IMG/VR virus record: IMGVR_UViG_3300045988_117002
Origin: a virus
Length of the DNA: 64,000 nt
Direction: 5' to 3' (one strand)
Below the pieces are notes generated by a model. The model saw only the letters and a list, made by a program, of their open reading frames with translations, was not told the origin of the DNA and made no database searches. A program made the position numbers and the translations under genes. Position 1 is the stretch's first letter. Every line of letters starts with the position of its first letter. Shown here one piece after another: positions 2,227 through 57,090 of this stretch.

Positions 2227-2817
2227 TCATTCCTCTCCAATCAGCTCCTTATATACTTTTAATTTCTCCGCTAACTCAGGATTATCATTTGCATACATCT
2301 CATATCGCTTTGTCTGATCCATTTCAGTAATCATTTTATCCATCTGTTTCTTAATTTTATCAGCTTCTTTCTTACGTTCAGCTTTCTCTTTACGTTCTTC
2401 CACACGTTTATCATATGCTGATGTATCAACTTTGCAGATAACTTCTGCGGTGATATTTGTATTACATTCATCTGGTGTAAGAATTTCTTCAATTGTAAGA
2501 ATATCCTTATTTGCACCACTTACTACAATTTTGTCACCTGCTTTATATGTTTCTCCATCATCATAAATTGCATAGAAATATTTCTTTCCATAGCATCCTT
2601 CTTTTGTCCCTGCTACTGCATAATATCCTTCTAATTTTGCCATGTTATTATCCTCACTTTCAATTATTACAACATCTTTTTTATATAGGTAAAGAATTAT
2701 CCCATTGTCAAATTCAACCTGTACAATATCTGCATTTTCTTTAACAATTATCCCCTCTTTATAAAACATACCATAAACATTACCAATGTATTTAACCCTA
2801 CTCCCTACGCAACTCAA
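2227..2817 (-). CDS. hypothetical protein with Lys/Glu-rich coiled-coil C-terminus
   Basis: 196-aa ORF; TTG start 8 nt after AAGGTG; overlaps the stop of the upstream gene. Confidence 0.6.
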   Translation of the reverse strand: MSCVGSRVKYIGNVYGMFYKEGIIVKENADIVQVEFDNGIILYLYKKDVVIIESEDNNMAKLEGYYAVAGTKEGCYGKKYFYAIYDDGETYKAGDKIVVSGANKDILTIEEILTPDECNTNITAEVICKVDTSAYDKRVEERKEKAERKKEADKIKKQMDKMITEMDQTKRYEMYANDNPELAEKLKVYKELIGEE

Positions 2818-3608
2818 TTATTTACACCTTCTTTCAATTGTAATAATAATTTTACGTGGGTATTGTCGTGAATATCGACATCGAAATCTTGTTTGATTTT
2901 GTTAGATGTGAAAGGTAAGATATAATCTTCAAAATATATAATCTCATATTTATATGTAGGGATTTTACTAAGTAATTGTTCAAGAGTAATTGGAAAATAG
3001 TTTTCTCTCACTTCTCTATCCCAATTCTCTTTATATCTATATTTCATGAGATAATGAATCAAATTCCTGTTATCTCGTAAACTTCCCCATATTGATTCAT
3101 AATCCATTATCTGTAATTCGTCTGCTCGCCTGATTACTTTTGTATAATCATTAATATCACTCTGTCTATTGACTGATCTACTTACACAAAAATCTCTGAT
3201 AGCTATGTATCCATAATCATATCCAAAAACATTATTCCAAAACTTATCAATTCCATTAATATTTGAATAAGAATATACTTCATGAATCACGCTTGATAAA
3301 TTTAATAATGTTTTATTTGGGTTATTTTCTTTCAAAGATTCTTTTAAATCACTTACATATTGAATGTTTTCTAATTCATGAGGTGTCCTTATTCCCGCAA
3401 GAGAAATCATATCCTTGCTATTATCATATCCTATATATTGTAAATCTGGCATTTCACTATTCATTTCTCTAATTAATGTACCATCAGCACATCCAAAATC
3501 AACAACAGTGTTAATCTTCTCAATTTTACTCATCCAAAATAGTTTATCTGCGCTTGATTTCCCCATTCCTGATGTATAAGAATCATAATTCCTAATAATT
3601 TCTTCCAC
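2814..3608 (-). CDS. class I SAM-dependent methyltransferase
   Basis: 264-aa ORF with GTG start. SAM-binding motif I VVDFGCADGTLI followed by an acidic residue about 20 aa later (IGYDNS). No DPPY/NPPY DNA-MTase motif seen. Confidence 0.7.
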   Translation of the reverse strand: MEEIIRNYDSYTSGMGKSSADKLFWMSKIEKINTVVDFGCADGTLIREMNSEMPDLQYIGYDNSKDMISLAGIRTPHELENIQYVSDLKESLKENNPNKTLLNLSSVIHEVYSYSNINGIDKFWNNVFGYDYGYIAIRDFCVSRSVNRQSDINDYTKVIRRADELQIMDYESIWGSLRDNRNLIHYLMKYRYKENWDREVRENYFPITLEQLLSKIPTYKYEIIYFEDYILPFTSNKIKQDFDVDIHDNTHVKLLLQLKEGVNN

Positions 3609-3784
3609 TATTTACACCTCTTCTCTTCTGCTATTTTAAGCCATCTAAGAAGTTTCTCTTCTTCACGTAGCATTTTAGAATACATTTTGATAATCTGATC
3701 CTGTTCTTTGTAAAACTGTCTTACATACCTTGGAAAATCATATCCAAATAGCCACAAAATTATCTTTCCCTTAATCCATTTCAT
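3608..3784 (-). CDS. hypothetical protein (58 aa)
   Basis: Hand translation MKWIKGKIILWLFGYDFPRYVRQFYKEQDQIIKMYSKMLREEEKLLRWLKIAEEKRCK; its stop overlaps the GTG start of the methyltransferase. Confidence 0.4.
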   Translation of the reverse strand: MKWIKGKIILWLFGYDFPRYVRQFYKEQDQIIKMYSKMLREEEKLLRWLKIAEEKRCK

Positions 3785-3951
3785 GATTTATATTCCTCAT
3801 TAAAAGCATAATCACTACAAGTCCACTTCTCACCTCTATATACAAATCCATACATGCCTTTAAATTTTGGATGTGTATATACGTCTACGACTGCGCCTTG
3901 AACTTGTTTTGCCACACCTATGTTTTCTCCTTGCTTAATATGTTTAATCAT
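3781..3951 (-). CDS. hypothetical protein (56 aa)
   Basis: Hand translation MIKHIKQGENIGVAKQVQGAVVDVYTHPKFKGMYGFVYRGEKWTCSDYAFNEEYKS; ATGA overlap with the next gene. Confidence 0.4.
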   Translation of the reverse strand: MIKHIKQGENIGVAKQVQGAVVDVYTHPKFKGMYGFVYRGEKWTCSDYAFNEEYKS

Positions 3952-3956
3952 ATTCG

Positions 3957-4274
3957 TCACCCATTATAATTCTCTCCGTAGACTGCTATTTCTGGTTTAC
4001 CATTTTCATCCAATGCGTAATACGGCATTGTAGAAGTTGAATATGAACGCTCAGTATATACATACACAATTTTCGTGTCTTTATCATACACAAATATTTG
4101 ATTCGTAGCATTTCCTCTACTATCTGTATAATGATTTCTTTTAATTTCTATAAATTGTCCATAAGAGCTAACTTTTTCACCTTTCTCATTTATAACTTCA
4201 TCACCGCCACATCCACTAAATGAAAGTGTCAATCCAGATATAAGCAATCCAATTAATAGTTTCTTAACTTTCAT
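3957..4274 (-). CDS. lipoprotein
   Basis: N-terminus MKVKKLLIGLLISGLTLSFSGCGG: basic n-region, hydrophobic core, lipobox-like SFSG|C. Confidence 0.7.
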   Translation of the reverse strand: MKVKKLLIGLLISGLTLSFSGCGGDEVINEKGEKVSSYGQFIEIKRNHYTDSRGNATNQIFVYDKDTKIVYVYTERSYSTSTMPYYALDENGKPEIAVYGENYNG

Positions 4275-4510
4275 TCAATCACCATCCTTTTCTTTAGTTC
4301 ATTCAATAAATCTTCATTAGAAAGCTGCTCTACAATTTCTTCTTTGAAACACGTTTCAACCGTATAACATAACTCTCCATCTTGGTCTGTATATACATTA
4401 CTTATCCATGATGTTCTTTTAGATGGCACTTGAAAAATTGTCAATTCACAATCTTTCACCTGCAATGATGTGATTACTTCATTTCTGTCACTCTTTATTT
4501 TAATTTTCAT
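4271..4510 (-). CDS. hypothetical protein
   Basis: 79-aa ORF; AAGGAGG RBS upstream; 4-nt overlap with the lipoprotein gene. Confidence 0.55.
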   Translation of the reverse strand: MKIKIKSDRNEVITSLQVKDCELTIFQVPSKRTSWISNVYTDQDGELCYTVETCFKEEIVEQLSNEDLLNELKKRMVIE

Positions 4511-4561
4511 GCGATTACCTCCTTAAAAATTCCACCACCATATCATTTTTAATTATTCTAT

Positions 4562-4789
4562 TCATGTACTCTCTTCTATTTTTAATAGATCATATTTTTC
4601 ATGAATATCATTTAAAAATTCATTAAATATTAAATCAACTGCACATCCAAAACCTTCACAAAAATCATTGTTAATTTCTTCTGTAAAATATTCGTCATAT
4701 TCATTTTTCAGCATATATTCTTTAATGAGTCGTTTTGATTGTTTTGGCTTACCATAGACATATCTTGGTATGTGATTCATAATATTCAA
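4562..4789 (-). CDS. hypothetical protein
   Basis: 75-aa ORF from the track, co-oriented in the array. Confidence 0.5.
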   Translation of the reverse strand: MNIMNHIPRYVYGKPKQSKRLIKEYMLKNEYDEYFTEEINNDFCEGFGCAVDLIFNEFLNDIHEKYDLLKIEEST

Positions 4790-5243
4790 AATATAATTAT
4801 GAATATAATCTAATTTATAAAATTCATTTTCAAATTCCTTACTTATTGTATATCACTTCTTTTCTTTGAAACTCAAGTTTTAATAAAACAAGTCTTTCAT
4901 CTACATTTTTAAATTTATCACACTGACTCTCTTTCATTTCTTCTCCATGAAAACCCAATTGTAAATAACATTTATTAAGTATATTGCAGGTATCATAATC
5001 AACATAATATTATAAATCAATTCTATCATTCTTAATTACTCCTAAAACTCACATTTTATCTATGTTTTTGATATATTTTTAAAACTTTCAAATTTCATAT
5101 GACAATACGTTTCAAGTTTTGTAGCTATGTCAAATTAAATAGTTATCGTGTATATTACATAGCTTTTAGTGAGTGCTTAACCTCACCTTTCAGGTGCAAA
5201 ATCACCTGTACATTTCTGCAATGACGTGAATGAAACCACGCTT

Positions 5244-5411
5244 TTATCCTGTCTCCTCGAATATATTCCCAATCTGATGTCCAATCATCTTTCTATCCTT
5301 TATCTTCTTACATTTCGTGCATCGACATTTACCAATTACAACTTCTAATCCACTATAATCATACTTTAAATGTCGTGACTTTTCGATTAATACCCAATTG
5401 TGATTACACAT
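5244..5411 (-). CDS. small Cys-rich (zinc-ribbon-like) protein
   Basis: Track ORF 5244..5435. I prefer the ATG at 5409-5411 (MCNHNW...), 8 nt after AAGGATGG. Contains C..H...CRCTKCKK. Confidence 0.45.
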   Translation of the reverse strand: MCNHNWVLIEKSRHLKYDYSGLEVVIGKCRCTKCKKIKDRKMIGHQIGNIFEETG

Positions 5412-5991
5412 TATTTGTTCCATCCTTAGTATCATATTTTAGTAATTCTCCATCTCTATAAATCTTCTGTGAGCATACTTTTTTAATACATAAATTGGTA
5501 TCAAAATTAGATTTTAATTCCACTTTAGTTACAACAACAGGTGCAACTCCAAATCTTGTGCCGCAATAAATTACATCACCTTTCTGTAACATAAGACTCA
5601 TATAACCCCATGTTTGTGGTAATCTCCAAACAAATTCCTTATCATCTTTACTGTTAGGATGTTTCCCGTATACATAAGCAGTTAGTTTTTCCTTGTATGT
5701 AACAACGTGTTTAGATGGAATCAATCGTCCATACTTTTTACGTTGCTTATCAGTATAAGTATGTTTTCTCAGCGTCAAACGTTTTGCATTAACATATTCC
5801 ACATCATGACTTTTCAACACAAGATACATTATGTAACCATCTACTAAAACATTCTTCTCATCTACTATTATGTACCTATCCTGGTTTCCTGTTTTGTTAT
5901 AGTAATTCTCACACTTTTCATATTTCGACGCATTTGGTGTGCTGCTTTCAAAATCTGTAGGAATTTTAATTTCTGAAAGTTTCATTTTCAT
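5404..5991 (-). CDS. hypothetical protein, possible ParB-like N-terminal domain
   Basis: 195-aa ORF. The N-terminus IKIPTDF...RYIIVDEKNVLVDGYIMYLVLKSHDVEYVNA loosely resembles the ParB/Srx-fold pattern (..I.V....l.DG.hR..A). The assignment is weak. Confidence 0.5.
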   Translation of the reverse strand: MKMKLSEIKIPTDFESSTPNASKYEKCENYYNKTGNQDRYIIVDEKNVLVDGYIMYLVLKSHDVEYVNAKRLTLRKHTYTDKQRKKYGRLIPSKHVVTYKEKLTAYVYGKHPNSKDDKEFVWRLPQTWGYMSLMLQKGDVIYCGTRFGVAPVVVTKVELKSNFDTNLCIKKVCSQKIYRDGELLKYDTKDGTNNV

Positions 5992-6006: not shown

Positions 6007-8304
6007 TTATGCAACTGCTCCTTTATTAAATGCAATCAAGTCATTTCTCATATTGAGATAGTTCTTTTTCTGATCAACATCATATGTATTATTTCTATTG
6101 AAATAGTCCTTAAACCAATCGTCACAATCTACATCGTTTTGATAGGCATATGCAATAACTCCAATGATGGAATCATGGTTAGCGGCCTCGAGAAGTTTTG
6201 ATGAATTATCAACGTCTAAAGTAATCGTATCTAAATATTCTTCATAGTCCTGCACATCAAGTTCTGAAACTGCCTCATCAACACAATCCTGTACAAACTT
6301 TAATGCAGATTTCATATCAGTATGAATTGTGTTATCAATTACTTCTCCGCTCACATGTTCAATTTCAGTGTTTCCAATCGCTGAATACTCTGTTACTTCT
6401 GCGATAGCAGGTTTCTCAGGTGATTCTTCGACCGTTTCTGTATCAAATAAATCATCTTCAACGGTTTCTGGTTCATGTTCTTCTGTGATTTCCTCAACAG
6501 AATCTTCGATATGTAAATATTCTTTCATCAGAGTAAACAAATGATTGAATCTTTTTGTTACGGAAGAACGATCCTTTGTCCCTTTCTGACCATTTAAACA
6601 ATCGTATGTAATGCCATCAATTTCTTTATTATGTAATGTCTCTTTAAATTCCTGAATAAATCCATTAAATTTATCATCTTCAATGTCGTATTCTAAGAAT
6701 TTATCAAATAAAGCAAACCATAAAAATGAATTTTTATTATTAAAAATATCTGATGTATCACCTCTTAACACATTAAATAACTTCTCCAATGTCAAATAAA
6801 AATCAATAAATACTGATTCATTTGCATTTTCAGTTAAGTAAGCACACATTTTACCAAAATCTTTATCAAAATGGCTAAGATATTTAGATGTCATTATTGC
6901 TTCAATAATAATTCTTCTAAGTGATCCATTCTTAATATTCGTATTTGAATAACTTGACTTATCACAATCAACTTTAAAGAAGTCCATCTTTAAAATCTTA
7001 TCTACATATTCAGCATAGGATTCTTCTAATCCTAGCCATCCTGACTGAGAAACGTTCATTGGTCTACATCTGTTGAATCGTGCAATATCATAAGCAATAT
7101 CTTTCTTTGTACAATTCAAATTGAGCATTACAGGAACTTGATAATCTCTAAATTTGTCTTGTAATTCTTCTGGCAACTGAGAAAATTTCTTTCCACGAAT
7201 ATCAAACGTTTTACTTTCAGGTATTGGAAATCCATCTTCATTCAAAATTACATTTCCATCTTCATCTGTTTTGTCGCTCTGATATTCAATCATATATCTC
7301 TGTACATTTTTGGAAATTGCAAATCCATCTTCCAGATAATCTTTTAAATTTGTAGAACGCTGTTTTCCATCAATTAACCAATGCATTATAATTCCAGCTT
7401 TAATTTCTTCTGAAATTACAATCTGTAAAAGTGAATTACCTTGTAAAATATCAGAAATTAATTCACTTTTTGTAAGTAAACTCCATTGTCCATAAGTTCT
7501 TTGCAACGGATGGTTGTCTCTTAATCTGTGCTGCCTTAACTGTTTACTAAGAGATTCTATTGAATAACTGGTAGACTTTGTTCTTTCTGATGTTGTTGTT
7601 TTTGTTTCCATTGGTAATTCCTCCTCAATATTTGCATTCTCACATTCTTCCATTTTTAGAAGTTGTCTTTTTTCATATTCTTTCATATCAGAAAGATATG
7701 TATTATATTCCTTATCGGAGATATGTAAAATCTCTTTAATTTCCGTAGAATTACATCCTTGCATTATTAAATCCACAATTTGACGTTGCACAGATCCAAG
7801 TGAACTAATATATCTAATTACATTTTCTCCAAGATTTAACAATTCTCCAACATCAATACTACTTTCAATATCAAAATCTGAAGGAATTACATCAATATAT
7901 TTTGTTTCTCCATCATCTGTCATTAAATTATCTAATGACGTTGGATAAATATATTCCTTTACTTCCTTTCCATCTTCTTCTGTAACTACTATTTGACAAC
8001 GTTTTCCTCTGTTCTTACGTGTCATATAGGTTTTTATTTTATTTGAAATTGCAAAATACATAAATCCATTGAACTTATTTTCGTCAAAATCTTCAATTCC
8101 TTGTTCCAATTGAGAATTTACATACTTTGTAATCTCTAAATTTGCTATCGAATAGCATTCTTCTCTATCAAAATCGGTGATACCACCAAATTGTGAAAGA
8201 ATTTTATCTACGATGTTATGTAATTTTCTTGCTGATTCTTCTGGTTTATCCTCATTTACTTTATAATAAGATTCCAGAATGTCTTTGTAGTGCATTCGTA
8301 TCAC
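6007..8304 (-). CDS. sigma-70-like (regions 2 and 4) :: DUF262 (ParB/Srx-fold) fusion protein
   Basis: Continuous 765-aa ORF. The N-terminus has a region-2-like block FNGFMYFAISNKIKTYMTRKNRGKR and a region-4 HTH-like block LGSVQRQIVDLIMQGCNSTEIKEILHISDKEYNTYL. The middle has the DUF262 signature PLQRTYGQWS...ELISDIL...WLIDGKQRSTNLKDYL. The C-terminus is paralogous to the 59275..60252 protein. Confidence 0.7.
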   Translation of the reverse strand: MIRMHYKDILESYYKVNEDKPEESARKLHNIVDKILSQFGGITDFDREECYSIANLEITKYVNSQLEQGIEDFDENKFNGFMYFAISNKIKTYMTRKNRGKRCQIVVTEEDGKEVKEYIYPTSLDNLMTDDGETKYIDVIPSDFDIESSIDVGELLNLGENVIRYISSLGSVQRQIVDLIMQGCNSTEIKEILHISDKEYNTYLSDMKEYEKRQLLKMEECENANIEEELPMETKTTTSERTKSTSYSIESLSKQLRQHRLRDNHPLQRTYGQWSLLTKSELISDILQGNSLLQIVISEEIKAGIIMHWLIDGKQRSTNLKDYLEDGFAISKNVQRYMIEYQSDKTDEDGNVILNEDGFPIPESKTFDIRGKKFSQLPEELQDKFRDYQVPVMLNLNCTKKDIAYDIARFNRCRPMNVSQSGWLGLEESYAEYVDKILKMDFFKVDCDKSSYSNTNIKNGSLRRIIIEAIMTSKYLSHFDKDFGKMCAYLTENANESVFIDFYLTLEKLFNVLRGDTSDIFNNKNSFLWFALFDKFLEYDIEDDKFNGFIQEFKETLHNKEIDGITYDCLNGQKGTKDRSSVTKRFNHLFTLMKEYLHIEDSVEEITEEHEPETVEDDLFDTETVEESPEKPAIAEVTEYSAIGNTEIEHVSGEVIDNTIHTDMKSALKFVQDCVDEAVSELDVQDYEEYLDTITLDVDNSSKLLEAANHDSIIGVIAYAYQNDVDCDDWFKDYFNRNNTYDVDQKKNYLNMRNDLIAFNKGAVA

Positions 8305-8341: not shown

Positions 8342-9073
8342 TTATTTTTTCTCTTTCGTTACGCCTTTCGCATAATCTTCGAGATATTCTTTAGACAAAC
8401 GTCTGTATTTATATTTAGAATTTGCAATCTTATCAATCACTTTCATGTATTTCCTGTTTTTAAATCTCTCCACATGGTATTGGAAAAGTTTTGCACAATT
8501 CCTATTTCTTTTACATATAGCACGTTGACGTTCATAATATTGCAATAAGTAACTAATTCTACTCATTGGCACTGTTCCCAATTTTGTTTCTTCATCTCGG
8601 ATAAAATGTCTTACGTCAAGAATTTTCAGATCATATTCTTTAATAAGATATTCCATATTCTCAATGTATTTCTCTCTATCAGAAATACAATCAATTACCA
8701 TCTTAAAGAAATTGCCGATTCCTATATCATTCATAGAAAGTTCTTTCTCTAAAGCAGTTTCTCCATGATATGTATAAGGATTATCATACTTTGGATTTCG
8801 CTGATAATCTTCATAGTAATCGTCAAGTTCCGCTAAGATACCGTTAATATCTTCTGGTAGTTTTTCTTCTTCAATTGGTTTAGGTTGAGCAGCGATTTCA
8901 GAGACTAGCTGAACATTAAAGTGAAATTTTCTCAATGGTTTAGGAAGATTCTTGATAATGTTTTTTGCTTTATCTTCTGAAAATCTTTCTGCAAGTACCT
9001 GACCGCATGTTTGAGGACTACCATTTGAATCTAAACGGATATATTGCTTGCCGTTTGTAATTAAGCAATCCAA
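8342..9073 (-). CDS. hypothetical protein
   Basis: 243-aa ORF; TTG start 9 nt after AAAGGGG; first gene downstream of the tRNA on the minus strand. Confidence 0.6.
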   Translation of the reverse strand: MDCLITNGKQYIRLDSNGSPQTCGQVLAERFSEDKAKNIIKNLPKPLRKFHFNVQLVSEIAAQPKPIEEEKLPEDINGILAELDDYYEDYQRNPKYDNPYTYHGETALEKELSMNDIGIGNFFKMVIDCISDREKYIENMEYLIKEYDLKILDVRHFIRDEETKLGTVPMSRISYLLQYYERQRAICKRNRNCAKLFQYHVERFKNRKYMKVIDKIANSKYKYRRLSKEYLEDYAKGVTKEKK

Positions 9074-9121
9074 TTTACATCGCCCCTTTCATTTTTATAA
9101 ACGTTATTTCTCCGTTTTGAA

Positions 9122-9195
9122 TGGAAATTGTGGGACTTGAACCCACGACCTATAGTTTATGAGACTATTTCTCTAACCAACTGAGATAAATTTCC
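9122..9195 (-). tRNA. tRNA with CAT anticodon (elongator Met or lysidine-dependent Ile2)
   Basis: Hand-folded 74-nt cloverleaf on the minus strand: acceptor GGAAATT/AATTTCC, D arm TCTC-AGTTGGTTA-GAGA, anticodon arm ATAGT-CTCATAA-ACTAT, variable AGGTC, T arm GTGGG-TTCAAGT-CCCAC, discriminator A. The 1-72 pair is G-C, so it is not initiator-like. No encoded CCA. Confidence 0.85.
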
Positions 9196-9321
9196 ATAAA
9201 ATACTTAAAAATGAGTACAAAAACTACGATGAAAGCCGACTTTCATTTGTAATATTTCTCTATATTTAGTTGTAATTAATTGGAATAATCGCAGAAACGC
9301 TATGATTAATAAAGATTTTGC

Positions 9322-9454: not shown

Positions 9455-9538
9455 ATTCTTGTGAAGATGTTTATATGATATACCAAACATTTGTTTGTGT
9501 CAATACTTTCCAGAACATTTGTTTGTATTTTTTCGATT

Positions 9539-9817
9539 TTATATTTTCATATGTCCCTTCTCAGCAAATAATATTGTTTTCTCTTTATTTTTATCTTGTG
9601 TTTTTAACGTAGACATTATGAAGTTTCTATTATATGTGATTGGAAGTCCAGTTGTAATAGCTTTAATTCCACAAGTTACACTTATTGGAATAGCTTCACA
9701 ATCAGGCGATCTCGTATCTAAATCAAATGAGGAAAATAACACATTCTCTCCACCGTTTTTCTTATACTCAGTTAATAATCTTATAGCTTCATCTACGGAC
9801 ACAATTCTTCCACTCAT
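9539..9817 (-). CDS. hypothetical protein, translationally coupled downstream of the MazF-like gene
   Basis: 92-aa ORF; 4-nt overlap with the stop of 9814..10203. Confidence 0.55.
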   Translation of the reverse strand: MSGRIVSVDEAIRLLTEYKKNGGENVLFSSFDLDTRSPDCEAIPISVTCGIKAITTGLPITYNRNFIMSTLKTQDKNKEKTILFAEKGHMKI

Positions 9818-10203
9818 GCTAATTCCTCCACTCTGATTTTCTTTTTACCATATAAGTTTGCAAGGAAACATTTTTCTACTAAAAGTCTATCCTCTTCATT
9901 GTCAATATTTCCCCATTTTTCAACTACATCACGCTTATCAATGGTAAAAATCTGTTCCCCTAAAACCATTGAGTCACATTTTAAACCATTAGATTTACTA
10001 GCTTTAATTACTTCGTGAGTGGGCTGCTCAACCTTTTTGATTTTACTGGTCAAGCACATGACAATCAAAGTAGGAGCAAACTTATTTCCAGAATCATTCT
10101 GGATTACAACAACAGGTCTTTCGATCTGCTGAACGTGTGATTTAGCTGATGTATTAACATTTGTTTTGACATAAAGAATATCAAATATATTAAACTCCAT
10201 CAT
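9814..10203 (-). CDS. mazF: MazF/EndoA (PemK) family endoribonuclease toxin
   Basis: ERPVVVIQNDSGNKFAPTLIVMCLTSKIKKVEQPTHEVI...DSMVLGEQIFTIDKRDV aligns nearly residue-for-residue with the remembered B. subtilis EndoA core [38 protein letters not shown]...DSVILLEQIRTIDKQRL. Confidence 0.85.
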   Translation of the reverse strand: MMEFNIFDILYVKTNVNTSAKSHVQQIERPVVVIQNDSGNKFAPTLIVMCLTSKIKKVEQPTHEVIKASKSNGLKCDSMVLGEQIFTIDKRDVVEKWGNIDNEEDRLLVEKCFLANLYGKKKIRVEELA

Positions 10204-10241: not shown

Positions 10242-10270
10242 ATTATAGCGTATAGACTATATATTGTCAA
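10242..10270 (-). promoter_or_regulatory. consensus sigma-A promoter of the MazF operon
   Basis: Minus strand: TTGACA (complement of 10265-10270), 17-nt spacer, TATAAT (complement of 10242-10247). Confidence 0.7.
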
Positions 10271-10282
10271 GACTATATATTG
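10254..10282. repeat. 13-bp direct repeat x2 (AGACTATATATTG), candidate operator pair
   Basis: Identical copies at 10254-10266 and 10270-10282, separated by TCA. They overlap the -35 boxes of both divergent promoters. Confidence 0.7.
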
Positions 10283-10308
10283 CAAAAAATAAATATTTTT
10301 GTTATAAT
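10280..10308 (+). promoter_or_regulatory. sigma-A promoter of the XRE regulator gene
   Basis: TTGCAA (10280-10285), 17-nt spacer, TATAAT (10303-10308). Confidence 0.7.
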
Positions 10309-10336
10309 CAATTCATCAAATTTTGGAGGTATCACA

Positions 10337-10546
10337 ATGAAAGTAATCCTCAAAGAAACCCTTGAAAAACAGGGTAAATCACAATATTGGCTTGCAAAAG
10401 AGACAGGTATAGCTCAATCTACATTGAGTAATCTTTGTGCCAATAAAACAAGTAAAATTGATTTTCTTGTGTTGCAAAAAATCTGTAATGCTCTTGATTG
10501 TGATATTACAGACATAATTTCTGTCAAAGAAAGCGATGACAAATAG
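10337..10546 (+). CDS. XRE/Cro-CI family HTH transcriptional regulator
   Basis: ATG at 10337, 7 nt after TGGAGGT. QYWLAKETGIAQSTLSNLCANK is a classic HTH_3 helix-turn-helix. The track's longer TTG start (10280) would begin inside the promoter. Confidence 0.8.
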   Translation: MKVILKETLEKQGKSQYWLAKETGIAQSTLSNLCANKTSKIDFLVLQKICNALDCDITDIISVKESDDK

Positions 10547-10590: not shown

Positions 10591-11135
10591 TTATTCCAAA
10601 TCATTGATAAGTTTCTTAACCCTATCAATTTCTTCTGTTGTATGTGGTGTTCCACCTGCGTTCATGTCAATGTACCACTGTAATACTTCTTTCTCTGTTT
10701 TCAGATTATTTACATGAATAATTAATGTATTTGTATTCAAATGCCTTGGATCTTCATATTCTCTATAATAAGAATTAACACTTTAATCTCATTATTTATA
10801 AATCTCTGAATGGAAGTTAATCTCTGTAAACCATCTACACAAACAAAATCTTTATATGTATCTGGCTTTATGTTATTCATGTTCCAGTCCATCCAAAATG
10901 GATCATTGAAATAGACATCATTACCAGATTTACCACCTTTGAGAAAAAACTCTAACCACGCAATCTGTTGTTCCTCCGTCCATACATGTCCTCTCTGGAA
11001 ATCTGGATTAAGTTGCAAATTATATTCTTTAATGTTTTCTTCAATCCATATAGATACTCTACGAATATCCATATTCACATGATAGCTTGCATCTCTTGTA
11101 AATTGTGGTATATCCTTAAATTTTGTATACTTCAT
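10591..11135 (-). pseudogene. short DUF262 (ParB-like) gene interrupted by a single frameshift
   Basis: ORF 10737..11135 carries DFQRGHVW...FVCVDGLQRLTSIQRFINNEIKV, then runs into nonsense (LILIIENMKIQGI*). A second frame opens at 10780-10782 and reads SVNSYYREYEDPRHLNTNTLIIHVNNLKTEKEVLQWYIDMNAGGTPHTTEEIDRVKKLINDLE* (stop 10591-10593). Confidence 0.6.
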
Positions 11136-11761: not shown

Positions 11762-11785
11762 ATATTCTCCATTATTTAATATACT

Positions 11786-12007
11786 TTATTTATTCTCTTT
11801 ATACCATAAATCAGCAATTGCATGAGTTAATTCAATTTGTAACATCCATGTTGTATTTGATCCAAAGTCTTCATTATAAGCCTTTCTAATCTTGTCTAAA
11901 TCTGTATCTGAATCAAAGAATCCCATTTCCTCTACTTTAAGAAATTCTCCATACAATTTTACCAGTTCTTCTTTTGATTTAGTTTCAAAAATATTAACAT
12001 GTCCCAT
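11786..12007 (-). CDS. hypothetical protein; intact paralog of the pseudogene at 18635..18862
   Basis: 73-aa ORF with TGGAGGT RBS. The decayed copy elsewhere in the window argues that this one is a real gene. Confidence 0.65.
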   Translation of the reverse strand: MGHVNIFETKSKEELVKLYGEFLKVEEMGFFDSDTDLDKIRKAYNEDFGSNTTWMLQIELTHAIADLWYKENK

Positions 12008-12459: not shown

Positions 12460-13623
12460 TTATAAATTTATAATTGCAGGGTGTGAATATGCACCCACTA
12501 TCTCATTTGTAGTTACATTTGAGAATACTTTTCTCATAATTTGAAATGCACCATTAACATCCGCATTGATATATTCTCCGTTATTACTCTTAAATAATCC
12601 ACGTTTAATACGTCTTGATTTATTATAATTTTCTTTTATTGGTAACTCATTATCAAGAAAACTCGTTCCTGATGTATAGCTTTCTTCTGTCTTAATCAAG
12701 TTAATTCCAACGCTTTCACATTTATATTCAAGCTTATTGATAAATGTTTCGTATGGAATATACACAAAATTTTGATTAGTAACTTTATTCATTTCAGAAT
12801 TTTGTTTCCATTTATCGTTCTTTCCTATAACAATCGTACCAATATCGTATTTTATACAATAATTGACAATATATTTACTTGCACAGTGCATAAGGTATTC
12901 CATCTTGAAATATCTTTTATCTGTTAATTTTTGCATTTGTTTTGTCCAGTTAAGATCGTTTACTGTTTTGGCAATACTTCTTAATCTCGACATTTTCTTA
13001 TTCCAATATTGATTATAAGATTTTATTCCTTTGCCATTTATAACAATAGAAGATTCTCCTATGTTATTTACAATTGTTACAAAGTTATTTAATCCCAAGT
13101 CAATTGCAGCAATTCTATTACTGTTTAATTGGTAAATGTTTCCATCATCCTCATAAACAATTTCAATAATATAACAACCACCTTTAGGAATAATTCTTGT
13201 TGATAAATGATGTCCTTTTACATTTGATTTAATCAAATTGTTATAAGGTTTCATTCTCTTAAAAGCAAAATATAAATATCCATCTTTAATATGTGTTTGC
13301 ATGTTAGTTAATGTACAAGTAAATCTTCCATCTTTCTTCTTATAAGCAGGAATTTTCGGTTTTCCTAAATATTTTTCTGGATGTAATGTATAATCTTTTA
13401 CAGCTACAAGAAATGATTTCCACGATTTACATAATATTTTTGTAACCATTTGAGCAGAATTTGATCCTAACTCTTTAAATGCATCTGTACTTTTCAATTC
13501 TTTATTCAAGTCCCCATATTTTTTAATTTTTTGAGTTTTAAAAAATTCTTGACGGATAGTATAGTTGCAAAGATTATACATATTCTTTGATAAATAACAT
13601 AACTCATCACATATTTGAAACAT
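12460..13623 (-). CDS. tnpB: TnpB-like RuvC-fold protein (IS200/IS605-IS607 OrfB family)
   Basis: RuvC-I AAIDLGLNNFVT, RuvC-II INLIKTEESYTSGTS and RuvC-III INADVNGAFQIMRKV. No CxxC zinc finger between II and III. The reading frame stays open about 60 nt upstream of the ATG without a canonical start. Confidence 0.8.
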   Translation of the reverse strand: MFQICDELCYLSKNMYNLCNYTIRQEFFKTQKIKKYGDLNKELKSTDAFKELGSNSAQMVTKILCKSWKSFLVAVKDYTLHPEKYLGKPKIPAYKKKDGRFTCTLTNMQTHIKDGYLYFAFKRMKPYNNLIKSNVKGHHLSTRIIPKGGCYIIEIVYEDDGNIYQLNSNRIAAIDLGLNNFVTIVNNIGESSIVINGKGIKSYNQYWNKKMSRLRSIAKTVNDLNWTKQMQKLTDKRYFKMEYLMHCASKYIVNYCIKYDIGTIVIGKNDKWKQNSEMNKVTNQNFVYIPYETFINKLEYKCESVGINLIKTEESYTSGTSFLDNELPIKENYNKSRRIKRGLFKSNNGEYINADVNGAFQIMRKVFSNVTTNEIVGAYSHPAIINL

Positions 13624-13889: not shown

Positions 13890-14714
13890 CTATTCTATCA
13901 TATCTGAATCATCTTGTGGACATAAATAATCTTCTGGTGTTTCTTCTTCATTCGAGAAAATGCACATTCTTTCCTGGTTTTTAAATATTTCTTCATCAGT
14001 GATACAAATATATCTTAAAGTAATACGCATATCAGAATGTCCGAAGATTGTCATAAGCTGTATCAGAGCCTGTTGTTTGTCTGGTGCTGCTAAATAATAA
14101 CTATGTCCAAAAGTCTTACGAAGTCCATGAGTACCAATAGACTGTTTAATACCTGCTTTTATTCTATTCCTCTCAACAGTTCTATACCATGTCATTTCTC
14201 CAATATGTTCACCTTTATTAGAAGAAAAAATATAATCAGTTAACTCAGGAGTTTCATTATGATCTTCTAACCACTTATGCCAATTCTGAATAGCCATTTT
14301 AAAGTCACTGTCATATCTTAATTTGACATATTTTCTTTTAATTACATTTCCACATCTATCTCTACGCTCTGTTTTTTCTGGAACAAACTTCTGTGACTTT
14401 TTAATTCTCCATCCATCTTCATATACATCTTTCCATGTGAGTTTGCAAAAATCCCCACCACGCAATCCAATATTGATTGCACATATGAACATTGTAAGAT
14501 TTCTCATAGCGTTCTTTTCTTTATTAACAGTAGTTGCATTATCAACATCTGTTTTAAACACATTATATACAGATAAAATTTCATCCTTAGTATACAAGCA
14601 TTCCATCTCTGTTGACTTCCCACGCCGTAATGTTTTCTGTTTTGGGAAGTTGTATATCGTTGCTTTCTGTTTTTGATTGATATAACACGACTGTTGGATT
14701 GCTAAAGCTGGCAT
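13890..14714 (-). CDS. tyrosine recombinase (short, catalytic-domain type)
   Basis: Catalytic signature GLRGGDFCKLTWKDV (Arg I), THGLRKTFGHSYY (H-x-x-R), IFGHSDMRITLRYI (His/Tyr). Confidence 0.85.
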   Translation of the reverse strand: MPALAIQQSCYINQKQKATIYNFPKQKTLRRGKSTEMECLYTKDEILSVYNVFKTDVDNATTVNKEKNAMRNLTMFICAINIGLRGGDFCKLTWKDVYEDGWRIKKSQKFVPEKTERRDRCGNVIKRKYVKLRYDSDFKMAIQNWHKWLEDHNETPELTDYIFSSNKGEHIGEMTWYRTVERNRIKAGIKQSIGTHGLRKTFGHSYYLAAPDKQQALIQLMTIFGHSDMRITLRYICITDEEIFKNQERMCIFSNEEETPEDYLCPQDDSDMIE

Positions 14715-18466: not shown

Positions 18467-18634
18467 TATTCCACCTCTCTTACTTCCTGATATATAATTT
18501 CCATATCGAAATTACTTTCAACATCTGCGTTCGTCTTCATTACGTTTACTGATAAATTCATCAAAACTCAATATTTCTGACATGTTTATCTTCCTTTTGT
18601 TTGAAAGTTAAATTTCAAACTACTTAATACTATT

Positions 18635-18862
18635 TTAACATTCTTCATACCATATATCACAAATTGCACAAGTTAATTCAATCTGCATCATCCATGTTGC
18701 ATTACATCCAAATCATTATTCATATAATTCTTTTATTTTACCGATCTCTGAATCAATATCAAACATTCCAGTTTCTTCAACTTTTAAAAATTCAGAATAC
18801 AGTTTATGTAATTCTTCTTTAGTTTTAGTTCAAAAAATATTTTCATTATTCGTAGTAAATAT
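18635..18862 (-). pseudogene. decayed paralog of 11786..12007
   Basis: Hand translation ..NIF*TKTKEELHKLYSEFLKVEETGMFDIDSEIGKIKELYE**FGCNATWMMQIELTCAICDIWYEEC*, compared with the intact MGHVNIFETKSKEELVKLYGEFLKVEEMGFFDSDTDLDKIRKAYNEDFGSNTTWMLQIELTHAIADLWYKENK. Three in-frame stops, and the ATG is lost. Confidence 0.7.
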
Positions 18863-27170: not shown

Positions 27171-27908
27171 TTATCGTTCTGTATATTCCCATTCTGCGAT
27201 AAAGTCAAACGCTTCATTGTAATACATAGGGTTTAAATCCTTATAAGAACTACATCCAAACCTTTCCTTTAATTCATTCCACATATTGATAAAATAGCTT
27301 TTGGAATAGCATTTGTATTTAGTCCCATGCGCTCCATCCAGAAGTTTATCGATTCTGTCTTTCGCTGCTTTATATAACTTCTGTTGCTGTCTAGTGGATA
27401 ACGTCATATTTTCCACCATCTTGTTGAGCATTTCTGTCTGTTCTCCGAGAAGATCTTCCATTGCGTTAATTTGAACTTGCATTCCTTCAATACGTCCTGT
27501 AAGTCCTAAATCATTAAAAAATTCTTGTTTCTGTTCTTCTGTTCCGAAAAATGCCTCGTGAAGTGTTTTAGCAGCTTTTAACTGATATAAAACAAGTTTT
27601 TGTACACCTTCTGGATTATTCCTTCTCATAGTAGGAGTAAGAGAAATTTTAGCAAGCCATAGTGTAACATAATCTTCAACGACACATAATGTTTCCTGTT
27701 CTCCACCTTTGGAAGGGTAACGCAAAATTGCGATTCCTTTTGAAAGCACGATATCTTTTCTTGCATTTTCAACCTGTCTCCTAGTCTGACCATCCGAAAA
27801 CCCTAAGTCATAACAAACATTTCTGATTGCCAACCATAATTTTCCAGAATCATCTTTGATTCCTAACAGTTCACTACCTTCAAATGGAATTTTCTTTGTT
27901 TCTACCAT
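27171..27908 (-). CDS. antirepressor-like protein (P22 Ant N-terminal-type domain plus ORF6C-like C-terminus)
   Basis: ATG 5 nt after CAGGAGGA. IPFEGSELLGIKDDSGKLWLAIRNVCYDLGFSDGQTRRQ...PSKGGEQETLCVVEDYVTLWLAKI fits the remembered P22_AR_N pattern (F.g..l..v...g..wv....vc..LG.....Q.r.l.....GG.Q......l..WL..I). Confidence 0.6.
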   Translation of the reverse strand: MVETKKIPFEGSELLGIKDDSGKLWLAIRNVCYDLGFSDGQTRRQVENARKDIVLSKGIAILRYPSKGGEQETLCVVEDYVTLWLAKISLTPTMRRNNPEGVQKLVLYQLKAAKTLHEAFFGTEEQKQEFFNDLGLTGRIEGMQVQINAMEDLLGEQTEMLNKMVENMTLSTRQQQKLYKAAKDRIDKLLDGAHGTKYKCYSKSYFINMWNELKERFGCSSYKDLNPMYYNEAFDFIAEWEYTER

Positions 27909-27980
27909 AATTGATTCCTCCTGTACTTGCATATTATTTAGTTCTCAATGTGCATTTGTAAAATATTGGAAATTTTCTGA

Positions 27981-33106: not shown

Positions 33107-33394
33107 CTAAAATTCCGCTTTCAGCTTTCCATTGTACTTTTCCGTGTATTCAAATTCAGGTTCACCAAAATAAAAGCCTGTTACTTCTGTGCTAATACAA
33201 AGATTTGTTTTCTTTTCGATTATATCCGACATAATAAAAGTTGCATCTGCTTCTGCTGAATAACATCCATACACAACTTTTTTATACGCATCTGCTTCTG
33301 CTGAATAACATCCATACACAACTTTTTTATACGCATCTGCTTTGCCTCCGTCGTATGTAATAGTTTTCTTTTTCTTATCTTTAATGATAAACAT
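33107..33394 (-). CDS. hypothetical protein containing an in-frame 15-aa tandem duplication
   Basis: Track ORF 33107..33409; ATG 8 nt after GGAGGA. ADAYKKVVYGCYSAE is repeated exactly. Confidence 0.55.
   Translation of the reverse strand: MFIIKDKKKKTITYDGGKADAYKKVVYGCYSAEADAYKKVVYGCYSAEADATFIMSDIIEKKTNLCISTEVTGFYFGEPEFEYTEKYNGKLKAEF
33243..33343. repeat. perfect 45-bp tandem duplication (2 copies plus 11 bp)
   Basis: gcatctgcttctgctgaataacatccatacacaacttttttatac at 33243-33287 and 33288-33332, then gcatctgcttt. Confidence 0.9.
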
Positions 33395-56818: not shown

Positions 56819-57090
56819 TCTATCTTTATAATAGACATAGATCTCCTTTTAGTGTGCGTGGGTGTCATAGCTTACGCACTCTTTTTATATTCCATTGGAT
56901 TGTTTTGATCAATGGAGAATTAATTATTGGGTGGGATGGATAATCCCTCAAAGAGTAAACGTAGGATGGTTGGTACTCTCCTATCTCTGAACCTCTGTAA
57001 ATATTAACTGGTTGGTCAGTTAGACCAATAAAGAGAATTACAAGCGTAGGCTTATCTCTACCTTCAATTGTATTATTGGAGGATTTTTTA

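What the first reader, a model, noticed from the sequence alone, without database searches (positions are those of the whole stretch)
6007..8304. Single 765-aa ORF fusing a sigma-70-like N-terminus to a DUF262 (ParB/Srx-fold) module; four ParB-type genes in one window
- The N-terminal ~215 aa carry blocks that read like sigma region 2 (FNGFMYFAISNKIKTYMTRKNRGKR) and the region 4 HTH (VQRQIVDLIMQGCNSTEIKEILHISDKEYNTYL).
- Residues ~255-330 carry a clean DUF262 signature (LQRTYGQWS..LISDIL...LIDGKQRST).
- The remainder is paralogous to the stand-alone DUF262 protein at 59275..60252.
- A third, frameshifted DUF262 gene lies at 10591..11135.
- A possible ParB-like protein (5404..5991) lies immediately downstream of the fusion.

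I am not aware of a described sigma-DUF262 architecture. ParB-fold proteins can act as NTP-gated DNA clamps, and T4 late transcription couples a sigma-like factor to a sliding clamp. A covalent sigma-clamp-like protein would therefore be a plausible new way to direct host RNAP. Alternatively, the DUF262 part could be an anti-defence or nuclease-targeting module.
Basis: partly seen in the sequence, partly recalled or inferred. Interest (0 to 1): 0.8.

Follow-up and report, generated by a model that had tools for sequence, protein, structure and literature searches.

The report
Phage sigma factor fused to DUF262 NTPase
A large gut phage makes one protein that joins a complete RNA-polymerase sigma factor to a ParB-fold, NTP-binding DNA-sensor module. 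The same two parts are always fused or adjacent in about 85 related phages and prophages, a pairing I did not find described, which suggests a new way of controlling transcription initiation.

Summary
Window 6007..8295 (-) (ATG start; GTG at 8304 is also possible) encodes a 762/765-aa protein with four parts:
- aa 1-215: a minimal but complete sigma-70-type factor (sigma2, region-3.2-like linker, sigma4).
- aa 239-597: an NsnA-type DUF262 (ParB/Srx NTPase) plus helical "ParBDB" core, with the conserved residues of the three DUF262 motifs (motifs I and III in variant form).
- aa 598-657: a variable acidic linker.
- aa 658-762: a family-private five-helix domain (CTD).

It is not an assembly artefact. 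More than 100 independent assemblies carry the same open frame.

The key new result comes from 85 related loci at 27-94% identity. The sigma and the DUF262-CTD are fused in 54 and are separate adjacent genes in 31. They are never apart.

The module sits in an apparent early operon with host-sigmaA-type promoters, beside an Xre-type regulator and an integrase. These are 100-180 kb temperate phages of gut Clostridia.

The mechanism is inferred: a phage sigma for host RNAP whose activity or targeting is governed by a DNA-sensing NTP switch.

Only three of the four claimed ParB-type genes are supported; 5404..5991 is not. No description of this pairing was found.

The parts
6007..8295 (-). Fusion ORF: 762 aa from the ATG at 8295 (765 aa if the GTG at 8304 is used); stop codon at 6007-6009
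   Evidence: All homologs start MHYK. Contiguous in MT835469.1.
7651..8295 (-). Sigma-70-type domain, aa 1-215. It comprises sigma2 (~aa 20-100), a beta-hairpin insert (aa 101-116), a region-3.2-like 'SLDxP...D.I' segment (~aa 118-140) and the sigma4 HTH (~aa 157-213).
   Evidence: PHROG 1740. Family Pfam hits Sigma70_r2, r4_2, ECF and GerE. Profile versus PDB hits SigA, SigH and SigK. AF2 secondary structure.
7582..7650 (-). Short flexible linker, aa 216-238. It contains the conserved T-S-E-K/R-x-K motif, which begins the DUF262 gene in split relatives.
   Evidence: pLDDT <50 at aa 219-234. Alignment A2. Split loci.
7021..7581 (-). DUF262 (ParB/Srx-fold NTPase) domain, aa ~239-425. Motifs: I Q265-R266...W271, II D309-G310-K-Q312-R313, III I404-A-R-F-N408.
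   Evidence: Invariant and near-invariant columns. PHROG 2598. PADLOC NsnA. Foldseek BrxU, ParB, Noc and PadC. Motif definitions from PMC12065111.
6505..7020 (-). Helical 'ParBDB'-type domain, aa ~426-597, contiguous with the DUF262 domain as in NsnA, GmrSD and SspE
   Evidence: The NsnA profile is covered to position 383 of 385. Aligns to paralog aa 160-323. All-helical, pLDDT ~90. Domain concept from PMC12065111.
6325..6504 (-). Disordered acidic linker, aa 598-657
   Evidence: pLDDT ~30. Across the family it is 0-101 aa, with 31% D/E against 8% K/R.
6010..6324 (-). Family-private C-terminal five-helix domain (CTD), aa 658-762. The chain ends in -VA; the last residue is Ala in 42 of 70 relatives.
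   Evidence: AF2 pLDDT 92.7. No PDB fold match. Only its own family in BFVD. No PDB sequence match. Not found outside the family. C-terminal residues.
8342..9073 (-). Upstream 243-aa gene of unknown function. Its N-terminal ~60 aa are conserved in the gene that precedes the sigma in distant relatives.
   Evidence: Overlapping or abutting stop and start with the sigma gene in L074 and L083.
9121..9196 (-). tRNA-Met (CAT) between the second promoter and the upstream gene
9475..9503 (-). SigmaA-type promoter-like site (TTGACA-17-TATCAT, 11/12) ahead of tRNA-Met, the 243-aa gene and the fusion gene
   Evidence: consensus match only.
10242..10270 (-). Perfect sigmaA-type promoter (TTGACA-17-TATAAT) flanked by two TATATAGTCT repeats. 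It heads the operon that starts with the PemK-like gene and is divergent from the HTH_3 gene.
9814..10203 (-). PemK/MazF-like toxin gene, first gene of the operon. Its synteny with the sigma module is conserved.
   Evidence: PF02452 on homologs in L079-L083. Synteny.
10280..10546 (+). Divergent Xre/HTH_3 regulator, a probable lysis-lysogeny repressor
   Evidence: NCBIfam HTH hits. HTH_3/HTH_26 on homologs.
5404..5991 (-). Downstream 195-aa gene with a C-terminal DUF5839. No terminator-like site separates it from the fusion gene. It is not demonstrably ParB-like.
   Evidence: Homologs lie downstream of the module in many loci.
59275..60252 (+). Stand-alone NsnA-like DUF262+ParBDB paralog (325 aa) next to a tyrosine recombinase gene (57960..59000)
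   Evidence: PF03235 E 8.6e-12. NsnA E 6e-32. BLASTP to the fusion E 4e-20.
10591..11135 (-). Frameshifted small DUF262 gene
   Evidence: PF03235 E 2.8e-10. The frame break is visible. Intact homolog in L001.

Best explanation
The gene encodes an early-expressed phage sigma factor for the host RNA polymerase. It is permanently coupled to an NsnA-type DUF262 module, either fused or encoded by the adjacent downstream gene.

Proposed sequence of events:
1. On induction or infection, host sigmaA-RNAP transcribes the early operon: PemK-like RNase, tRNA-Met, the 243-aa protein, sigma-DUF262, then downstream genes.
2. The sigma part (sigma2, region 3.2, sigma4) binds core RNAP and redirects it to phage middle/late promoters.
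3. The DUF262+ParBDB part binds DNA and NTP. It acts as the sensor or switch that decides where or when this sigma is active. In defence proteins (GmrSD, SspE, BrxU, NsnA) the same module senses DNA and switches on a nuclease partner. Here the nuclease effector is replaced by a sigma factor.
4. The module hangs from the C-terminal end of sigma4 by a ~20-aa tether. That would place it on DNA just upstream of the -35 element.

Shown: the domain identities, the intact NTP-site motifs, the obligate fused or adjacent pairing, the position in the operon, and the temperate gut-Clostridia phage context.

Inferred: RNAP binding, promoter redirection, NTP and DNA sensing, and the direction of control (activation or tethering rather than inhibition).
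For: Sigma identity.

DUF262/NsnA identity and conserved motifs.

Obligate coupling:
- 54 fused and 31 split-adjacent among 85 loci, none otherwise.
- All 5 stand-alone sigma homologs that were looked up have the DUF262(-CTD) gene immediately downstream.
- The split genes have their own stop codons and ribosome-binding sites.

Selection acts on the NTPase core. Among relatives of >=85% identity, the DUF262+ParBDB core is the most conserved part (entropy ~0-0.25, mostly <=0.13). Sigma region 2, the linker and the CTD vary more.

Operon context: sigmaA-type promoters with repeats next to a divergent HTH_3 gene, and no terminator-like site within the module. The synteny integrase / HTH_3 / PemK / sigma / DUF262 is conserved.

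Only one sigma gene is present in the window and in the related 176-kb genome. No multisubunit RNAP was seen among that genome's large ORFs.

Precedent for DUF262 acting as a sensor that activates a partner: PMC12065111.
Against: - No phage-specific promoter motif could be found in the window or in the related 176-kb genome. The sigma's targets are therefore unknown.
- The window's own sigma domain is below the Pfam thresholds.
- Nothing shows that the DUF262 part contacts the sigma, DNA or NTP.
- The sign of regulation is unknown.
- The phage carries three ~900-aa proteins that may be YonO-like RNA polymerases. These could do the late transcription instead.
- The phage has other DUF262 paralogs with no sigma. 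DUF262 may therefore serve a different, for example defence-related, purpose.
Confidence: 0.5

Rival explanations
1. Anti-sigma-like brake. The DUF262-CTD part holds the sigma inactive, in cis when fused and in trans when split. It releases the sigma on an NTP or DNA signal, or is removed by proteolysis. This resembles ECF sigmas with inhibitory C-terminal extensions, or pro-sigma factors.
For: - The partner gene occupies the classic anti-sigma position, immediately downstream and co-transcribed.
- Fused regulatory extensions on sigma factors are an established theme (ECF41/ECF42; from knowledge, not tested here).
- The CTD and the sigma region are the fast-evolving parts.
- The C-terminal residue is Ala in 42 of 70 relatives, which could be a protease tag. 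The phage also encodes a ClpP-like protease.
Against: - No similarity to any known anti-sigma domain. The CTD has no PDB match.
- The most constrained part is the NTPase/DNA-binding core, not a sigma-binding surface.
- This rival overlaps with the best explanation and differs only in the sign of control.
Confidence: 0.2
2. The DUF262-CTD part is an NTP-gated ring that loads on DNA and slides, carrying the sigma along the phage genome. This would be a covalent analogue of T4 gp55 on the gp45 clamp.
For: - The domain order (ParB-fold NTPase, helical DNA-binding domain, flexible linker, C-terminal helical domain) parallels ParB (PMC12065111).
- Foldseek places ParB-CDP, Noc and PadC among the top hits.
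Against: - The Foldseek E-values are weak (0.01-0.5), and the best hit is BrxU, which is not a clamp.
- The linker before the CTD is 0-12 aa in many family members.
- No recurring parS-like sequence was found in the 176-kb relative.
- Some members lack the CTD altogether (P0148 and P0202).
- No DUF262 protein is known to slide, to my knowledge.
Confidence: 0.1
3. This is not a transcription-initiation factor. It is an NsnA-like conflict protein, for superinfection defence or as an anti-defence decoy. Its N-terminal sigma-derived domain serves only as a DNA- or RNAP-binding 'sensor', like the polymorphic N-terminal sensor domains of type II Menshen NsnA.
For: - The core aligns end-to-end with NsnA.
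- 23% of NsnA proteins carry N-terminal DNA-binding sensor domains, including sigma region-1.1-like ones (PMC12065111).
- The phage carries two further DUF262 paralogs, one next to a recombinase gene.
Against: - No NsnB/NsnC or nuclease partner is nearby.
- The N-terminus is a whole sigma (regions 2, 3.2 and 4), not a single DNA-binding fold.
- In basal lineages it is a free-standing ~200-aa protein of typical sigma size.
- The gene appears to lie in the repressor-controlled early lytic operon rather than in a lysogen-expressed moron position.
Confidence: 0.12
4. These are two functionally unrelated neighbours that became fused by loss of a stop codon.
For: Gene fusions of adjacent phage genes do occur. 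The split state appears ancestral.
Against: - Adjacency is kept in 85 of 85 loci down to ~27% identity. The fused state is maintained across a large clade, with at least 4 state changes.
- 34 of the 150 best 50%-identity clusters are fusions.
Confidence: 0.05

Closest known systems
NsnA of the Menshen (NsnABC) anti-phage system, and the DUF262+middle domain of GmrSD/BrxU/SspE
   Same: - ParB-fold DUF262 NTPase with variant forms of the QRxxxW and FxxxN motifs (here QRxxxxW and IxxxN) and a canonical DGxQR motif.
- It is followed by the helical ParBDB domain, with end-to-end profile alignment (PMC12065111).
- N-terminal domain polymorphism is known for NsnA.
   Different: - It is phage-encoded, in an apparent early lytic operon.
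- No NsnB/NsnC and no DUF1524 nuclease is present.
- The partner is a complete sigma factor.
- It has an extra acidic linker and a private five-helix CTD.
Group 3/4 (SigH-like or ECF-like) sigma-70 factors, including phage sigmas (for example SPO1 gp28, PBSX Xpf) and ECF sigmas with C-terminal regulatory extensions (ECF41/42)
   Same: - Sigma2 plus sigma4 joined by a region-3.2-like linker, ~200 aa when free-standing.
- An early phage gene placed to switch the transcription programme.
- A covalently attached or co-transcribed regulator.
   Different: - The attached or adjacent partner is a ParB-fold NTPase, not a SnoaL, TPR or zinc-binding anti-sigma domain.
- A beta-hairpin replaces region 3.0/3.1.
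- The promoter specificity is unknown.
T4 late transcription (gp55 sigma, gp33, gp45 sliding clamp)
   Same: The concept of a phage sigma whose activity depends on a DNA-loaded, nucleotide-dependent accessory protein positioned upstream of the promoter complex.
   Different: - No homology.
- gp45 is a PCNA-like trimer loaded by a clamp loader.
- Ring formation and sliding by this DUF262 module are unproven and partly contradicted by the evidence.
ParB-family nucleotide switches that act on transcription (KorB/KorA, VirB, DndB)
   Same: ParB/Srx-fold nucleotide-binding proteins that bind DNA and regulate promoters.
   Different: - Those act as repressors or anti-silencers and have no sigma partner. 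Here the fold is tied to the initiation factor itself.
- This comparison rests on knowledge, not on a test made here.

Membership tests
Sigma-70 family | Sigma2 domain (Pfam PF04542, regions 2.1-2.4) | tested here: met
   16 of 27 fused N-termini and 48 of 96 mainly stand-alone relatives hit PF04542 (best E 2.9e-8 and 1.4e-7). Profiles align to region 2 of SigA, SigK and SigH. The window copy itself is below threshold.
Sigma-70 family | Sigma4 HTH domain (PF08281, PF04545 or GerE-like) | tested here: met
   r4_2 in 7 of 27 and 13 of 96; GerE in 6 of 27 and 23 of 96. The SigH alignment runs through region 4. The window copy hits GerE at E 0.042, aa 168-208.
Sigma-70 family | Region 3.2 linker between sigma2 and sigma4 | tested here: met
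   The family motif 'SLDxPxxxDxxxTxxDxI' aligns to SigA 'VSLETPIGEEEDSHLGDFI'.
Sigma-70 family | Binds core RNAP and confers promoter-specific initiation | not testable with these tools
   No biochemical data. The search for a candidate promoter motif failed.
DUF262 / GmrSD_N (PF03235) ParB-fold NTPase | Motifs I (QRxxxW), II (DGxQR) and III (FxxxN) | tested here: met
   R266, D309, G310 and N408 are invariant. Q265, W271, Q312 and R313 are >=90% conserved in 38 fusions. Motif I has one extra spacer residue. Motif III reads IARFN.
DUF262 / GmrSD_N (PF03235) ParB-fold NTPase | Profile or fold match to the family | tested here: met
   PHROG 2598 E 2.8e-10. PADLOC NsnA E 3e-11. PF03235 on close homologs. 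Foldseek BrxU prob 0.96. The window copy gets no direct Pfam hit at E<=1.
DUF262 / GmrSD_N (PF03235) ParB-fold NTPase | NTP binding and hydrolysis | not testable with these tools
   Inferred from motif conservation only.
Menshen system (NsnABC) | NsnA accompanied by NsnB (AAA_15/OLD-type ATPase) and NsnC | tested here: not met
   Neither flanking gene (8342..9073, 5404..5991) hits any PADLOC model or a relevant Pfam family.
GmrSD/BrxU/SspE type IV restriction enzymes | C-terminal DUF1524 His-Me nuclease domain | tested here: not met
   No Pfam hit in aa 598-762. The CTD is a five-helix bundle with no PDB match.
Canonical ParB CTPase sliding clamp | Clamp architecture: N-terminal gate, DNA-binding domain, linker forming a lumen, C-terminal dimerisation domain, and parS loading sites | tested here: inconclusive
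   The domain order is similar, with weak Foldseek hits to ParB and Noc. However, the linker is 0-101 aa, no repeated parS-like sites were found, and dimerisation could not be tested.
ECF sigma factors with fused C-terminal regulatory extension | ECF-type sigma2/sigma4 with a known extension type (SnoaL-like, TPR, and so on) | tested here: not met
   Sigma70_ECF hits occur in only 5 of 27 and 8 of 96. The extension is DUF262, not a known ECF extension.

The most novel reading that the evidence does not exclude
A ParB/Srx-fold (DUF262) NTPase is the dedicated regulatory subunit of a sigma factor. It reads a property of DNA, such as phage versus host origin, modification or replication state, using NTP binding or hydrolysis. 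It thereby licenses or tethers the sigma so that host RNAP is committed to the phage genome. This would be a new class of control of transcription initiation. It would also be a non-defence, phage-side use of the sensor module found in GmrSD, SspE and Menshen.
Probability: 0.3. Interest if true: 0.85.

Novelty: new variant of a known kind. Interest (0 to 1): 0.68.

Why it matters
DUF262 modules are currently understood as DNA sensors that trigger nucleases in anti-phage defence. Sigma factors are understood to be regulated by anti-sigmas, proteolysis or small ligands.

A conserved sigma/DUF262 unit in abundant gut phages would link these two fields. It would mean a nucleotide-driven DNA sensor wired directly to promoter recognition.

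The finding offers three practical things:
- A testable model of how large temperate phages of gut Clostridia run their lytic programme.
- A natural fused-versus-split pair for dissecting the interaction.
- Possibly a portable DNA-state-dependent transcription switch.

Culturable lysogens carry close relatives (Eubacterium plexicaudatum ASF492, Faecalicatena contorta, Lactonifactor). The question can therefore be addressed experimentally.

Tried and rejected
1. Direct Pfam, NCBIfam and PDB searches with the single window protein gave almost nothing. Family profiles were needed.
2. A whole-model Foldseek search gave only weak E-values, although the hits were consistent.
3. The CTD could not be identified. 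Profile versus PDB, Foldseek against PDB and BFVD, and a 5.8-billion-protein search found only its own family.
4. The search for a phage-specific promoter found nothing convincing. I tried repeats, k-mer enrichment in 106 upstream regions of the 176-kb relative, and inspection of late-region upstreams by eye. One apparent motif (D3) looks like a terminator stem plus T-tract.
5. The search for parS-like recurring 12-16-mers found none.
6. I tested the idea that the 'split' loci are really fused through stop-codon read-through or recoding. 19 of 31 are in the same frame, but the spacers hold several stop codons plus AAGGAG-type ribosome-binding sites and an ATG. They are true separate genes.
7. 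ParB-likeness of 5404..5991 was rejected.
8. Bacillus phage PJN02, the only cultured-phage DUF262 hit, has no adjacent sigma.
9. A weak CTD-like segment in ORF 61284..61880 was not significant (hhalign probability 16%).
10. Cluster look-ups gave no source names for any homolog.
Full report

The minus-strand ORF 6007..8304 exists. It gives 765 aa from a GTG start. An ATG three codons in (8295) gives the 762-aa product that every database homolog starts with (MHYK...). An AGAGAGGA ribosome-binding site lies upstream of both starts.

The frame is not an assembly artefact.
- The 176-kb phage record MT835469.1 carries the same uninterrupted ORF at 96% aa identity.
- A search of 5.8 billion proteins returned 719 relatives. 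The best 120 are 751-766 aa, come from many independent assemblies, and share >=85% identity.
- Fusions as distant as ~28% identity keep the same frame and domain order.

**2. The N-terminal ~215 aa are a sigma factor.**

On its own the window protein gives only PHROG 1740 'RNA polymerase sigma factor' (E 1.3e-4) and a sub-threshold GerE hit.

An exhaustive phmmer search with aa 1-232 against 1.84 billion cluster representatives found 309 relatives. Among the best 150:
- 102 are free-standing proteins of 170-270 aa.
- 34 are fusions of 550-900 aa, with the match always at the N-terminus.

In an alignment of the window's N-terminus with 95 free-standing relatives, the Pfam hits among the 96 members were Sigma70_r2 (48), GerE (23), Sigma70_r4_2 (13), Sigma70_ECF (8) and Sigma70_r3 (7). 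The profile of that alignment hits solved sigma structures: C. difficile SigA 7l7b at E 1.8e-9 and SigH 3mzy at E 3.9e-9. The alignments run from region 2 through the region-3.2 motif (family 'SLDxP...D.I' against SigA 'VSLETPIGEEEDSHLGDFI') into the region-4 HTH.

Repeating the test with fused N-termini only gave the same answer. 16 of 27 hit Sigma70_r2, and the profile hit SigA at 9e-7, SigH at 3e-6 and SigK at 2e-5.

The AlphaFold model (mean pLDDT 79.9) shows helical sigma2 and sigma4 separated by a beta-hairpin insert and a flexible segment.

**3. The middle is an NsnA-type DUF262 module.**

- aa 222-586 match PHROG 2598 (E 2.8e-10).
- aa 209-594 match the PADLOC NsnA model end-to-end (profile positions 20-383 of 385, E 3e-11).
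- The stand-alone paralog at 59275..60252 matches the same models (E 1.6e-33 and 6e-32), matches PF03235 (E 8.6e-12), and aligns to aa 248-594 of the fusion (26% identity, E 4e-20).

The three motifs that define DUF262 are QRxxxW, DGxQR and FxxxN (PMC12065111). In 38 diverse fusions, R266, D309, G310 and N408 are invariant, and Q265, W271, Q312 and R313 are >=90% conserved.

Foldseek with the full model gives weak E-values. Its top hits are nevertheless BrxU (a GmrSD-family enzyme), ParB-CDP, Noc, ParB and PadC, followed by sigma-containing entries.

The helical region at aa ~426-597 corresponds to the 'ParBDB' DNA-binding domain that follows DUF262 in NsnA, GmrSD and SspE.

There is no nuclease domain. 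Beyond aa 597 come:
- a disordered acidic linker;
- a confidently predicted five-helix domain (pLDDT 92.7). It has no match in the PDB by sequence or fold, and in BFVD it matches only a member of its own family, annotated just 'DUF262 domain-containing protein'.

**4. The decisive new observation is an obligate pairing, fused or split.**

Scans of IMG/VR, of GTDB genomes and of contigs encoding free-standing sigma homologs gave 103 loci.

I built HMMs for the three parts and mapped them onto the first 85 loci. 54 loci have SIG-DUF-CTD in one ORF. 31 have a sigma gene immediately followed by a DUF262(-CTD) gene. None shows any other arrangement.

All five free-standing sigma homologs that I looked up (43-26% identity to the window's N-terminus) have the DUF262 gene directly downstream.

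The split genes are truly separate. Their spacers carry one or more stop codons, an AAGGAG-type ribosome-binding site and an ATG. In other loci the two genes overlap in different frames.

On a neighbour-joining tree of the DUF262 domain, the split forms are basal and the fusion marks a large derived clade. Parsimony requires at least four state changes. The tree is NJ and support was not assessed.

This is a classic Rosetta-stone signal that the two proteins work together. It also shows that covalent linkage is not required.

**5. Genomic context.**

A perfect sigmaA-type promoter (TTGACA-17-TATAAT, 10270-10242) carries two TATATAGTCT repeats. It faces away from an Xre/HTH_3 gene (10280..10546). 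It heads a minus-strand operon:
1. PemK/MazF-like toxin gene (9814..10203).
2. A 92-aa ORF.
3. A second 11/12 promoter-like site (9503-9475).
4. tRNA-Met.
5. A 243-aa gene.
6. The fusion gene.
7. A 195-aa gene.

No terminator-like site lies within the module.

The order integrase / HTH_3 (divergent) / PemK / small ORF / ~210-260-aa gene / sigma / DUF262-CTD recurs in distant relatives. The gene preceding the sigma shares a conserved N-terminal ~60 aa.

Some relatives sit in contigs of 1.4 and 3.3 Mb. The 18 loci found in GTDB genomes are almost all in Lachnospiraceae-type Clostridia, including the isolates Faecalicatena contorta, Eubacterium plexicaudatum ASF492 and Lactonifactor.

These are therefore large (100-180 kb) temperate phages of gut Clostridia. 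The module lies where an early lytic regulator would be expected. That reading is an inference from promoter consensus and synteny.

The related complete genome encodes a DNA polymerase, a primase-helicase, NrdD and a siphovirus-like structural block. It has no second sigma and no multisubunit RNAP among the large ORFs examined.

**6. Mechanism.**

What is shown:
- a complete minimal sigma;
- an NsnA-type module with an intact nucleotide site;
- strict co-occurrence of the two;
- stronger purifying selection on the DUF262+ParBDB core (column entropy ~0-0.25, mostly <=0.13, among relatives of >=85% identity) than on sigma region 2 (0.35-0.57), the linker or the CTD.

In every characterised system, the DUF262 module is a DNA-sensing NTPase that switches on a partner effector (PMC12065111). 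The most economical extension is that the effector here is the sigma. The module would sense DNA and nucleotide state and would tether or license the phage sigma on host RNAP. Attachment to the C-terminal end of sigma4 by a ~20-residue tether would put it on DNA just upstream of the -35 element (inference). I give this about 0.5.

An inhibitory, anti-sigma-like version of the same coupling is the main rival (0.2).

- The ParBDB-CTD linker is 0-12 aa in many members and up to 101 aa in others.
- Some members have no CTD.
- No parS-like repeats were found.

A defence or anti-defence role with a sigma-derived 'sensor' domain (0.12) is suggested by the N-terminal polymorphism of NsnA. It fits poorly with a whole, ancestrally free-standing sigma and with the absence of NsnB, NsnC or a nuclease.

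Accidental fusion of unrelated neighbours is very unlikely (0.05).

**7. What failed.**

I could not find the promoters this sigma would use. This is the main gap in the argument.

**8. Comparison with what is known, and novelty.**

The parts are known: the sigma-70 family, and DUF262/NsnA. The locus is not a Menshen system and not a GmrSD enzyme, because defining partners or domains were tested and are absent. It cannot be filed as a ParB clamp.

Five full-text searches found no description of a sigma-DUF262 fusion or operon. Public annotations call the protein 'ECF sigma factor...' (an automated label in nr), 'DUF262 domain-containing protein' (UniProt/BFVD) or hypothetical. The library does not cover subscription-only papers.

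I rate it a new variant of known kinds: a sigma factor with a new class of dedicated partner, and a DUF262 sensor with a new class of effector.

**9. Verdict.**

Three DUF262 genes are supported, not four ParB-type genes.
- Interest is 0.68. The pairing is robust, widespread in gut phages, unexplained and experimentally approachable. Every functional step beyond domain identity is still inference.

Noticed in passing
window 47446..50169 (+); paralogs in MT835469.1 at 2240..5131 and 164851..167721: Three ~900-960-aa paralogs of PHROG 8308 (unknown function) have no Pfam or PDB match. Distant homologs in Enterocloster phage PMBT24 and Thomasclavelia phages are annotated 'RNA-dependent RNA polymerase'. 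The window copy has a DxDxD-type triad (DEDSD, aa 573-577). They may be YonO-like single-chain RNA polymerases, which would bear on who transcribes the late genes.
   Followed up: partly
window 9814..10203 (-), promoter 10242..10270, HTH gene 10280..10546 (+): A PemK/MazF-like endoribonuclease toxin is the first gene of the apparent early operon. It sits behind a perfect sigmaA promoter with two TATATAGTCT repeats and is divergent from an Xre-type regulator. This toxin/HTH pair is syntenic with the sigma module in relatives sharing only ~35-45% identity for the toxin and 23-36% for the sigma. No obvious antitoxin was identified.
   Followed up: partly
window 10591..11135 (-): The small DUF262 gene is broken by a frameshift. 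An intact ~177-190-aa version exists in L001 (4933..5505). Relatives L010 and L016 match the truncated 132-aa ORF at 100% over its full length, which suggests (not checked directly) that they share the frameshift. That would make it a real pseudogene or a programmed shift rather than a read error.
   Followed up: partly
fusion protein aa 1-120 and 160-180 versus aa 240-600; loci L001-L021: In close relatives whose flanking genes are mostly 82-100% identical, the sigma domain is only 81-85% identical while the DUF262 core is 95-99% identical. This suggests allele exchange or diversifying selection focused on sigma region 2/4 and, separately, on the CTD (60% or 92-98% variants).
   Followed up: partly
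fusion protein C-terminus (window 6010..6015); ClpP-like gene window 53681..54325 (+): The last residue is Ala in 42 of 70 family members (-VA, -AA, -TA and similar), reminiscent of C-terminal protease tags. The phage encodes a ClpP-family protease in its early/replication block, next to a beta-CASP RNase-J-like gene (52372..53649).
   Followed up: no
window 12460..13623 (-): A TnpB/IS605-OrfB-like gene (PHROG 506) lies between the integrase-like gene (13890..14714) and the regulatory module. An identical copy is present in L002 and L019 and absent from most other close relatives. A 51%-identical copy sits downstream of the module in L074. The element therefore appears mobile within this phage group.
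   Followed up: no
window 27171..27932 (-), 42702..43244 (+), 57076..57897 (+): Three different antirepressor-type genes (P22_AR_N+ORF6C, AntA, ORF6N+KilAC) occur in one 64-kb window. The window also holds two tyrosine-recombinase genes (13890..14714 and 57960..59000), the second next to the stand-alone DUF262 paralog.
   Followed up: no
whole window (GC 27-34%): The window's ~30% GC looks low for Lachnospiraceae (from general knowledge, not checked here), which are the hosts of most diverged relatives. One partial close homolog of the CTD is labelled Intestinibacter sp.. The actual host of this phage may therefore be a low-GC Peptostreptococcaceae member.
   Followed up: no
window 33243..33332: A perfect tandem duplication of a 45-nt unit lies near the 3' end of the minus-strand gene 33422..34018. 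A 220-nt repeat occurs at 11781..12000 and 18627..18846 (71% identity), reflecting paralogous small ORFs.
   Followed up: no
window 61284..61880 (+): The 198-aa ORF about 1 kb downstream of the stand-alone DUF262 paralog has a weak resemblance to the CTD motif 'N..SLIA..AY...D.D..WF..Y' (HMM E 0.0015 within the window; hhalign probability 16%). It is not significant, but the position is suggestive.
   Followed up: partly
window 44172..45425 (+): A GIY-YIG homing-endonuclease-like gene lies in the replication block. An HNH endonuclease sits inside the structural region of the related genome (MT835469.1 129373..130803), next to tape-measure-like fragments. This suggests intron or intein-type interruptions.
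   Followed up: no
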